Of a stretch of DNA of 64,000 nucleotides, positions 32,040 through 33,304 are shown one piece after another. Under the pieces are notes generated by a model. The model saw only the letters and a program-made list of their open reading frames with translations, was not told where the DNA came from and did not search any database. The stretch lies in NCBI RefSeq assembly GCF_964188315.1, contig NC_135655.1, positions 27,838,001 through 27,902,000 of the forward strand, written 5' to 3'. Origin of the DNA: Podarcis muralis (Eukaryota). Every line of letters starts with the position of its first letter. The first letter of the stretch is position 1. Made by a program: the position numbers and the translations under genes.

Positions 32040-32170
32040 CTTTATCCTGGCCTTTTAAACCCTATTCCTGTGACTGTAATCTGTTTTTAACTGTTTTTTA
32101 TTTTGGAATTTTATATTTTTGTAACTCCTCTGAGACCTGCTAATGTAGGGTGCATAATTAATGTTTATAA
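32040..32170 (+). mobile_element. L2-like LINE 3' tail
   Basis: T-rich stretch then TTTTTGTAACTCCTCTGAGACC..AGGGTGCATAATTAAT. Confidence 0.4.
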
Positions 32171-32172
32171 TA

Positions 32173-32404
32173 CAGGGGTACCTCGGGTTAAGAACTTAAT
32201 TCGTTCTGGAGGTCCGTTCTTAACCTGAAACTGTTCTTAACCTGAGGTACCACTTTAGCTAATGGGGCCTTCCGCTGCTGCTGCCGCACAATTTCTGTTC
32301 TCATCCTGAAGCAAAGTTCTTAACCTGAGGTACTATTTCTGGGTTAGCGGAGTCTGTAACCTGAATCGTCTGTAACCTGAAGCGTCTGTAACCCGAGGTC
32401 ACTG
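32173..32404. mobile_element. Tigger-like MITE (CAGTGGTACCTC family)
   Basis: TIRs CAGGGGTACCTCGGGTTA / TAACCCGAGGTCACTG; TA TSD. Confidence 0.93.
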
Positions 32405-32432
32405 TAATAATGAAAAAATTAAGATAGGTTAC

Positions 32433-33209
32433 TGTCAGAGCTGCCTCAGGTCCCAGCTCACAGAGGACCAACGCCAGTCCGTTGTTATATAAAATAGTCT
32501 TTATTGAAGTTCAGTTTCTCTTTTACAGCCACGGCGCGCAGCTCTACGTCTTAAACCTTAGACCGCCGAAGCTCCGTCTGAGTCTCCTCCCCCCAGACAC
32601 CAGTTTAAGACCCTAGCCTTGCTCCACCTTTCCCTCTGCTCCCTCCTCCTCTGGGTCCTCTTGTCCGCCGAGGTCTTGCCCTTCCTAGACTCTTCTGACG
32701 CTGAGTCCCCTGAGTCTTCGCCCTCCCTCCGGCGGGCTTTAGGACCTGGTTCCCAATCCGGGTTTTCTGCTGTCCCGCGCGCCTGTACATTTGAACTTGG
32801 CGCGCGCGCCCAGCCTGCCACCTTCCTTCTGACCGTTATACTGCTCCTGTCGCTGCTTCCCTCTTCGGGGACGCTAGCTGGGCCTGACTCCTCCTCCCTG
32901 CTTCCCGGAGGAGACGCTGACTCTGACCTATGGGGCTCTTCCCCCCCACTACGCTCTGGTGGGGAAGCTGGTCCTGATTTCCAGCTACTGCTTTGGGAGT
33001 CTCCGCTGGCCCCCTGCTTCTGGTGTGTCCCCCCTGGGACCCCCCTTGCCCTGGCCATCGGCGCCCCCTTCTGGGAATCTTCTGATTCACTGGAGAGGCT
33101 CATGGAATCTCTCGGGTCACTGTCATTCTGCCCTCCGCTGCCCTCAGATTCTTCCCCTTCGCTCTCCATTTCCTCTCTCCCCTGTGCCTCTGCTCCTGAG
33201 CCCCTGACA
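32433..33209 (-). mobile_element. Solo LTR (Gypsy/ERV-type), 777 bp
   Basis: TG...CA ends with 6-bp inverted repeat TGTCAG/CTGACA; 5-bp TSD GTTAC/GTTGC; minus-strand AATAAA at 32500-32505; GC/CpG-rich. Confidence 0.85.
32558..33169 (-). CDS. LTR-internal ORF, 203 aa; Ser/Glu/Gly-rich, basic Arg-rich C-terminus; coding status unproven
   Basis: Uninterrupted frame from LTR nt 2 to TAA, 53 nt before AATAAA; no homolog recognised. Confidence 0.3.
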   Translation of the reverse strand: MESEGEESEGSGGQNDSDPRDSMSLSSESEDSQKGAPMARARGVPGGTHQKQGASGDSQSSSWKSGPASPPERSGGEEPHRSESASPPGSREEESGPASVPEEGSSDRSSITVRRKVAGWARAPSSNVQARGTAENPDWEPGPKARRREGEDSGDSASEESRKGKTSADKRTQRRREQRERWSKARVLNWCLGGGDSDGASAV

Positions 33210-33304
33210 GTTGCTTTTTTAATTCATTGGTTAGCTTAATTTATTTGTAACATTTTAAATCAACTGAATAGGGATACTTGATTAATCGGTAACAATTTGT
33301 AATA

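What the first reader, a model, noticed from the sequence alone, without database searches (positions are those of the whole stretch)
32433..33209. Solo LTR almost filled by one ORF: possible accessory gene carried inside the LTR
Seen: the minus-strand frame is open from the second LTR base through ATG 33169 to TAA 32558 (203 aa from ATG, ~84% of the LTR open), with AATAAA 53 nt after the stop. The product has an acidic Ser-rich N-terminus and a basic C-terminus (KARRRE; KRTQRRREQRERWSKAR) followed by VLNWCL. Established: U3-overlapping accessory ORFs exist (MMTV sag, HIV nef), and Arg-rich motifs act as NLS/RNA-binding elements in Rev/Rex-type proteins. Inference: every solo LTR of this family would deposit a complete small gene plus polyA signal. 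Caveat: the T-poor, GC-rich strand lowers stop frequency, so chance openness is not negligible.
Basis: partly seen in the sequence, partly recalled or inferred. Interest (0 to 1): 0.7.

Follow-up and report, generated by a model that had tools for sequence, protein, structure and literature searches.

The report
Retrotransposon polymerase tail fills its LTR
The long reading frame inside this lone retrotransposon end-repeat is real and conserved, but it is the last 216 codons of the element's polymerase-integrase gene, which runs on through the repeat, so the lone repeat likely carries a headless fragment and not a small gene of its own.

Summary
The LTR and its open frame are real: 777 nt, TG..CA, 5-bp target duplication, 216 codons, shuffle p 0.0025-0.016. 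The frame is under purifying selection between subfamilies (dN/dS 0.20-0.43). It is not an accessory gene. The LTR belongs to a 6.6-kb lizard Gypsy element of the Tf1/sushi chromovirus kind. In a younger sister subfamily, 31 of 150 LTR matches sit in frames of 1,557 aa or more; in the four copies read, Pol runs through all of U3 and stops in R, and both scanned hold PR-RT-RH-IN. UniRef Podarcis Pol proteins end in the same tail. ATG 33169 is an internal Met, missing in 4 of 8 subfamily representatives. The predicted promoter lies at the frame's 3' end, so a solo LTR is not expected to transcribe it. Weak point: in the window's own subfamily only 6 of 21 junctions are in frame with pol; the rest carry scattered G-run indels. 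The chromodomain upstream has lost its three aromatic-cage residues. Closest precedent: plant CRM chromoviruses, whose pol enters the 3' LTR. A new variant of a known arrangement; the tail's function is untested.

The parts
32433..33209 (-). Solo LTR of a Tf1/sushi-type Gypsy retrotransposon (subfamily A here)
   Evidence: TG..CA ends and target duplication; 40 genome matches scored at 98-100%, 3,085 first-look candidates; same LTR bounds gag-pol elements
32558..33208 (-). 216 codons plus stop: the LTR-encoded C-terminal tail of Pol/integrase, headless in this solo LTR
   Evidence: Aligns end to end (61%) with residues 1290-1498, the C-terminus, of a 1,498-aa Pol in UniRef; dN/dS 0.22-0.35 against one copy of each of 7 other subfamilies
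33167..33169 (-).
   Evidence: Met in 4 of 8 subfamily representatives, Leu or Thr in the other 4
32604..32608 (-). TATA-like TTAAA, predicted, overlapping the L-N codons of VLNWC
   Evidence: 29 nt upstream of the predicted start; TTAAA/TTAAG/TTGAA at a fixed distance in all 8 subfamilies where the site was found. Function inferred
32569..32579 (-). 11 nt complementary to the primer-binding site: predicted 5' end of the RNA (U3/R border) and self-primer; overlaps the last codons (D-G-A)
   Evidence: PBS after 5' LTRs (24 occurrences) is the exact complement; the pairing is in the predicted fold. Start site not measured
32500..32505 (-). AATAAA polyadenylation signal in R
   Evidence: Sequence; conserved in the aligned A and B copies
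33210..33214 (-). Target-site duplication, upstream copy (GCAAC)
32428..32432 (-). Target-site duplication, downstream copy (GTAAC)
32562..33239 (+). Open antisense frame without ATG; shares third codon positions with the sense frame, likely its shadow
   Evidence: dN/dS 0.21-0.58, at or above the sense value in all 28 subfamily pairs, and it carries stops in some copies

Best explanation
This is a solo LTR of a lizard Gypsy retrotransposon whose pol frame continues past the integrase and a degenerate chromodomain, across the polypurine tract and through all of U3 to a stop in R, so the open frame is the last 216 codons of Pol and the solo LTR likely holds an untranslated, headless copy of it. 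Shown: the frame continuity in full-length copies, selection on the frame, the domain order. Inferred: the full-length RNA starts about 145 nt before the LTR end, self-primes reverse transcription, makes Gag-Pol by a -1 shift at GGGAAAC, and yields an integrase with a roughly 420-aa mostly disordered extension (chromo-like domain, acidic linker, LTR-encoded tail). Most likely role of the tail, untested: nuclear import or chromatin/nucleic-acid contact through its basic end (RRKV..PKARR..KRTQRRREQRERW). Recombination between the two LTRs leaves the tail without its upstream pol and with the promoter at its far end.
For: Full elements with gag (Ty3_capsid, zf-CCHC) and pol (PR, RT, RH, IN, SH3_Tf2-1) share this LTR. 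tblastn with a tail homologue: 31 of 150 matches lie in open frames of 1,557 aa or more (my count). Four such copies read: one frame of 1,557-1,566 aa ending in the tail, LTR pairs with 0-4 mismatches; both of the two scanned hold PR-RT-RH-IN-SH3. Junction census with queries that stop short of the junction: subfamily C 23 of 28 in frame (1 more unclassified with the same junction). A subfamily-A copy has pol running into the LTR frame with one internal stop. Outside this assembly: UniRef Podarcis Pol proteins and a Logan contig protein; 13 of 24 retrieved proteins with the chromo-like motif carry the whole tail in frame. dN/dS 0.20-0.43 in all 28 subfamily pairs, 0.60-2.12 in the four frames that do not share third positions; tail 0.20-0.31 against linker 0.33-0.52 and RT/RH/IN 0.05-0.09. 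A-B, A-F3 and A-F4 indels in the frame are 30, 48 and 9 nt. AlphaFold2 gave no confident fold (mean pLDDT 40), as expected for a disordered tail though a shallow alignment also gives this.
Against: In the sets pulled with A and B internal queries only 7 of 28 and 12 of 29 junctions are in frame; out of frame is the commonest state there; for strict subfamily A 6 of 21. The indels fall in three different G-runs, differ among copies and do not track relatedness (permutation p 0.67 and 0.59), which fits independent slippage, but the family is star-like and the test weak. An in-frame ATG sits in the polypurine tract just before the LTR in 80 of 85 junctions, so a separate start cannot be excluded by sequence. 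The first 36 LTR codons alone give dN/dS 0.55, 0.34 and 1.44 in three subfamily comparisons (few sites). No protein-level or ribosome evidence. Part of the conservation at the very end may come from overlapping promoter and primer signals.
Confidence: 0.88

Rival explanations
1. In subfamilies A and B the tail became a separate small gene that starts at the ATG in the polypurine tract and overlaps the end of pol, as nef and sag overlap the 3' LTR.
For: Most A and B junctions are out of frame with pol; the tract ATG is present in 25 of 28 and 27 of 29; selection on the tail continues between A, B and their near relatives (dN/dS 0.22-0.43).
Against: The out-of-frame states are several different ones, not one shared state; the same ATG is present in subfamily C where it is an internal Met; it is GTG in 5 of 85 junctions, three of them in one subfamily; no splice joint in two RNA runs, though internal coverage was only 1-4. 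Even if true, solo LTRs lack that ATG.
Confidence: 0.05
2. The G-runs before the LTR are a programmed slippage site, so one element makes a short integrase (ending about 36 codons into the LTR in another frame) and a long one with the tail.
For: The junction is unusually unstable and out-of-frame copies are common in two subfamilies and in one UniRef model.
Against: The alternative frame is not conserved: dN/dS 0.85-1.42 over its 36 codons and its stop moves between A and B; young C copies are mostly in frame; no X-XXY-YYZ site with A/U was sought or seen there. G-run indels also break the tail inside the LTR, at times in one LTR of a pair only, which points to post-insertion slippage or assembly error.
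Confidence: 0.04
3. The coding strand is the antisense one: a Leu-rich protein read from the open plus-strand frame.
For: 225 codons open, dN/dS below 1; LTR reads are strand-biased 5- to 10-fold, direction not calibrated.
Against: No ATG in the window copy; this frame shares third positions with the sense frame, so low dN/dS is expected; its dN/dS is never below the sense value and it has stops in several B copies; the biased reads run into host flank on both sides.
Confidence: 0.02
4. Chance openness from a T-poor, G-rich strand.
For: T is 13% of the strand.
Against: Shuffle p 0.0025-0.016; dN/dS bootstrap intervals all below 0.66; frame kept at 65-73% DNA identity.
Confidence: 0.01

Closest known systems
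Plant CRM-clade chromoviruses (group A; Beetle, CRM) and some Galadriel elements (Bingo1-4, 7)
   Same: Gag-pol frame extends into the 3' LTR; in CRM group A the LTR encodes the integrase C-terminal CR motif, whose gain is linked to loss of the classical chromodomain (passages of PMC3605345, PMC3059260, PMC6317226).
   Different: Animal host; self-priming PBS instead of tRNA-Met; a chromodomain-like segment is kept upstream of the tract; the frame covers all of U3 and the start of R; no similarity to the CR motif was shown.
Tf1/sushi chromoviruses (Tf1, Tj1, Sushi-ichi, Amn elements; V-clade)
   Same: Ty3/Gypsy domain order, SH3_Tf2-1, chromodomain-like C-terminal segment, 5-bp target duplication, PBS complementary to an LTR-internal stretch (self-priming; passages of PMC4600332, PMC6317226); Gag's best solved match is PEG10; GGGAAAC in the gag-pol overlap, the heptamer I recall for PEG10.
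   Different: U3 is G-rich and coding, whereas Sushi U3 is described as T-rich (PMC3601003, section 12); about 360 residues follow the chromo-like segment; the three cage aromatics are lost.
U3-overlapping accessory genes: MMTV sag, HIV/SIV nef (recalled, not checked here)
   Same: A selected coding frame occupies U3 and is followed by the polyA signal.
   Different: Those are separate genes with their own mRNAs; here the frame is continuous with pol.

Membership tests
Ty3/Gypsy, Tf1/sushi chromovirus group | gag then pol with order PR-RT-RH-IN | tested here: met
   Pfam on full-length copies; best PDB match Ty3 Gag-Pol, E 7e-137
Ty3/Gypsy, Tf1/sushi chromovirus group | Chromodomain at the integrase C-terminus | tested here: inconclusive
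   Segment after SH3 matches HP1/CBX chromodomains, best E 0.006; Pfam Chromo E 0.11, below cut-off; the three cage aromatics align to N, K and T
Ty3/Gypsy, Tf1/sushi chromovirus group | PBS complementary to an LTR-internal stretch (self-priming), not to a tRNA | tested here: met
   11-nt exact complement 145 nt before the LTR end; priming itself not testable; no tRNA comparison was run
Ty3/Gypsy, Tf1/sushi chromovirus group | 5-bp target duplication; TGTYANR..CNTNACA ends | tested here: met
   5-bp duplications at 23 of 30 A loci and 22 of 30 B loci; 5' end fits, 3' end fits in B and has one mismatch in A (motif from PMC3601003)
Ty3/Gypsy, Tf1/sushi chromovirus group | RT groups with Sushi-ichi/Amn in a tree | not tested
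   No reference sequences were fetched
LTR accessory gene (sag/nef kind) | Selected coding frame in U3 | tested here: met
LTR accessory gene (sag/nef kind) | Reading frame separate from pol | tested here: not met
   Continuous with pol in 4 of 4 young copies read and 23 of 28 C junctions; mixed in A and B; fused in UniRef
LTR accessory gene (sag/nef kind) | Conserved own start codon inside the LTR | tested here: not met
   Met at the 33169 position in 4 of 8 representatives
LTR accessory gene (sag/nef kind) | Own spliced or subgenomic mRNA | tested here: inconclusive
   No splice joint, but internal depth only 1-4 in two runs
Plant CRM clade, group A | pol extends into the 3' LTR | tested here: met
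Plant CRM clade, group A | tRNA-Met PBS | tested here: not met
   PBS is self-complementary to the LTR
Plant CRM clade, group A | CR motif sequence | not tested
   No CR-motif profile was used; Pfam finds nothing in the tail and the only database relatives are Podarcis or unnamed contigs
Plant CRM clade, group A | Centromeric accumulation | not testable with these tools
   Centromere positions unknown; copies with internal sequence cluster near both contig ends

The most novel reading that the evidence does not exclude
A vertebrate chromovirus has independently arrived at the plant CRM solution: its chromodomain lost the methyl-lysine cage and the integrase gained an LTR-encoded tail that now sets where the element inserts, here chromosome ends. 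The whole U3 enhancer/promoter is thereby dual-coding.
Probability: 0.2. Interest if true: 0.72.

Novelty: new variant of a known kind. Interest (0 to 1): 0.42.

Why it matters
U3 is normally the fastest-changing, non-coding part of an LTR. Here all of it, with the predicted TATA-like box and self-primer, is under protein constraint, and I found no account of this for a vertebrate element in the searches listed. It gives a natural case for how promoter and protein share one sequence, and a candidate integrase targeting tail to set beside the plant CR motif. It also explains why many solo LTRs in these lizards look like small genes and are annotated as hypothetical proteins. As an accessory gene the finding does not stand.

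Tried and rejected
Pfam on the sense and antisense frames: no family. phmmer over 1.84 billion representatives: 4 hits, all of this family. AlphaFold2 on chromo-like segment plus tail, 8 sequences: mean pLDDT 40, not used for a fold search. The ESM Atlas gave no answer, so that comparison is open. Earlier notes of this scan: nothing near or by words. Run search: no holder on record as RNA; two raw bulk RNA runs and one single-cell run of the same species label were laid instead. Short-read contigs did not resolve the G-run lengths, so real slippage and assembly error are not told apart. The first test of junction inheritance was faulty, two copies being mis-anchored; it gave p 0.15 and 0.014 and was redone (p 0.67, 0.59). 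Frame-blind DNA alignment to distant subfamilies split gaps unreliably (14 of 35 gaps a multiple of three); only the close pairs are informative. ORF survival among the 30 best LTR matches (28 of 30) is biased by picking the closest copies and was not used as evidence; in sets picked by internal sequence it is 16 of 28, 15 of 29 and 20 of 28. Paper searches for a prior description returned only plant cases for pol entering the LTR; subscription papers and Repbase are not covered.

Full report
Observation. The feature is as described. The LTR runs 33209-32433 on the minus strand, 777 nt, TGTCAG to CTGACA, between GCAAC and GTAAC. The frame is open from base 33208 to TAA at 32560-32558: 216 codons, 203 from ATG 33169. 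Shuffles keeping base or dinucleotide content reach that length in 0.25-1.6% of 2,000 trials. One antisense frame is open too, without ATG. Pfam finds nothing in either.

The family. A genome search gave 3,085 first-look candidates, of which 40 were scored, at 98-100% identity. Of 30 loci read, 23 are distinct solo LTRs with 5-bp duplications; five share downstream sequence and one has a polypurine tract upstream. Six longer stretches showed a 6.6-kb element: LTR, gag (Ty3_capsid, zf-CCHC), pol in the -1 frame (PR, RT, RH, integrase, SH3_Tf2-1), LTR. Best solved matches are Ty3 Gag-Pol for Pol and PEG10 for Gag. Named database relatives of the tail are all Podarcis, so the host is likely a lacertid lizard (inference).

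Promoter geometry. The sequence after 5' LTRs is the exact 11-nt complement of a stretch 145 nt before the LTR end, window 32579-32569, and the two pair in the predicted fold. This is the self-priming arrangement of Tf1/sushi elements, where the PBS pairs with the 5' end of the mRNA (passages of PMC4600332 and PMC6317226). It puts the predicted start at about 32579, with TTAAA 29 nt upstream. So the frame fills U3 and ends about 20 nt into R; VLNWC overlaps the TATA-like box and the last codons overlap the primer. A solo LTR's own promoter would lie at the end of the frame. The start site is inferred, not measured.

Selection. From 131 distinct LTRs, nine clusters at 65-91% identity were found; representatives of eight keep a frame of 200 codons or more. 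On 94 unbroken real copies compared pairwise, dN/dS in this frame is 0.20-0.43 in all 28 subfamily pairs; the four frames not sharing third positions give 0.60-2.12; the mirror antisense frame gives 0.21-0.58 and is never lower than the sense frame. Bootstrap intervals for the window copy against one copy of each of seven other clusters all lie below 0.66. The alignment was protein-guided, which favours the sense frame slightly; frame-blind alignment of close pairs gave only 30-, 48- and 9-nt indels. The frame is therefore coding.

What it codes. A protein search of the genome with a tail homologue returned 150 matches in a younger sister group (C, about 72% identical to the window LTR); 31 lie in open frames of 1,557 aa or more and 8 more in frames over 1,000 aa (my count). 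Four were read: each has one frame of 1,557-1,566 aa that ends with the tail, and LTR pairs differing at 0-4 sites. Both of the two scanned hold PR-RT-RH-IN-SH3. The tail begins at about residue 1,349 of 1,557. Independently, a 1,498-aa UniRef Pol from Podarcis muralis ends in the tail (61% over all 216 residues), as does a 415-aa protein from an unnamed contig; 13 of 24 retrieved proteins with the chromo-like motif carry the whole tail. These are automatic gene models, and they may come from the same species. ATG 33169 is Met in 4 of 8 representatives and Leu or Thr in the others.

The weak point. With queries ending before the junction, pol and tail are in frame in 23 of 28 C junctions (1 unclassified, 4 out), but only 7 of 28 in the A set and 12 of 29 in the B set; 6 of 21 for strict A. 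The breaks are indels in three G-runs of the tract region; copies differ in which run is altered, and state does not follow relatedness (p 0.67 and 0.59; low power). The frame that pol enters when shifted is not conserved (dN/dS 0.85-1.42). G-run indels also break the tail inside LTRs, sometimes in one LTR of a pair. I read this as slippage after insertion or assembly error, which short-read contigs did not settle. An ATG in the tract (80 of 85 junctions) keeps a small chance for a separate gene in A and B, but solo LTRs do not contain it.

Expression. Two bulk RNA runs (about 12% of each read) cover the LTR at depth 70-260 on the main strand and the internal region at 1-4; LTR reads run into host flank at both edges. 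The unique sequence upstream of the window's LTR has no depth. So the RNA seen likely comes from host transcripts reading through a few other solo LTRs; this locus shows none in these samples. Strand and tissue are unknown.

Mechanism. Shown: frame continuity, domain order, selection. Inferred: full-length RNA, a -1 shift at GGGAAAC, protease release of an integrase with a long extension. The extension has a chromodomain-like segment (HP1, E 0.006; Pfam below cut-off) with all three cage aromatics replaced yet dN/dS 0.06-0.09, an acidic linker (0.33-0.52) and the LTR tail (0.20-0.31). The tail is acidic and Ser-rich at its start and basic at its end, with no confident fold. My best guess for its role is nuclear import or chromatin contact; this is untested.

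Comparison. Pol extending into the 3' LTR is described for plant CRM chromoviruses, where the LTR encodes the CR motif, and for several Galadriel elements (passages of PMC3605345 and PMC3059260); gain of that motif is linked to loss of the classical chromodomain (passages of PMC6317226). This element works like those in layout but is not a member: animal host, self-priming PBS, no CR similarity shown. Sushi-group U3 is described as T-rich (section 12 of PMC3601003), unlike this one. The sag and nef comparison is recalled. Eight paper searches (listings seen, five papers read in passages or one section, no supplements) gave no vertebrate case; Repbase and subscription papers were not covered.

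Verdict. Real and selected, but a Pol tail, not an accessory gene: a new variant of a known arrangement, interest 0.42. The boldest open reading is a convergent LTR-encoded targeting tail. It draws on the lost cage and on clustering near chromosome ends (50 of 76 internal-containing loci outside C20 within 1.5 Mb of an end, 3.8% expected; C solos 5 of 13). A and B solos are mostly dispersed (3 of 22, 1 of 19) and retention bias is not excluded, so I give it 0.2.

Noticed in passing
G000, matches: Copies with internal sequence cluster within 1.5 Mb of contig ends: 16 of 18, 19 of 28 and 15 of 30 outside C20, against 3.8% expected. Solo LTRs: C 5 of 13, A 3 of 22, B 1 of 19. Most 3' flanks are distinct, so mainly separate insertions. 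Samples are top matches, not a census; targeting and retention are not told apart.
   Followed up: partly
G000:C20: 41 of 117 internal-containing loci lie on this 30-Mb contig (2% of the sequence); it may be a non-recombining sex chromosome (inference).
   Followed up: partly
L100, L128, L130: LTRs inserted in or beside (CCCTAA)n telomere-like arrays.
   Followed up: no
L188:5345-5530: Chromodomain-like segment with N, K and T at the three aromatic-cage positions, yet dN/dS 0.06-0.09: conserved but probably not a methyl-lysine reader.
   Followed up: partly
L033, L187, L188 gag-pol overlap: A single X-XXY-YYZ heptamer, GGGAAAC, in each overlap; pol is in the -1 frame.
   Followed up: partly
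L191:5984-6760 (RNA runs X23, X24): LTR depth about 70-260 against 1-4 inside the element, with reads running into host flank on both sides and private variants: host transcripts likely read through a few solo LTRs. Strand not calibrated, tissue unknown, about 12% of each run read.
   Followed up: partly
L035:6846-9624: A subfamily-B element followed by a piece of subfamily-A internal sequence and an A LTR: nested or recombinant copy.
   Followed up: no
L033:5543-9507: Another element with long open frames (231 and 1,153 aa) interrupts the Gypsy copy; its N-terminus looks Copia-like (recalled, not tested).
   Followed up: no
window 32170-32399 and families D1-D18: High-copy interspersed repeats beside the LTR and across the window; they resemble a MITE and Sauria SINEs (recalled, not tested).
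   Followed up: no
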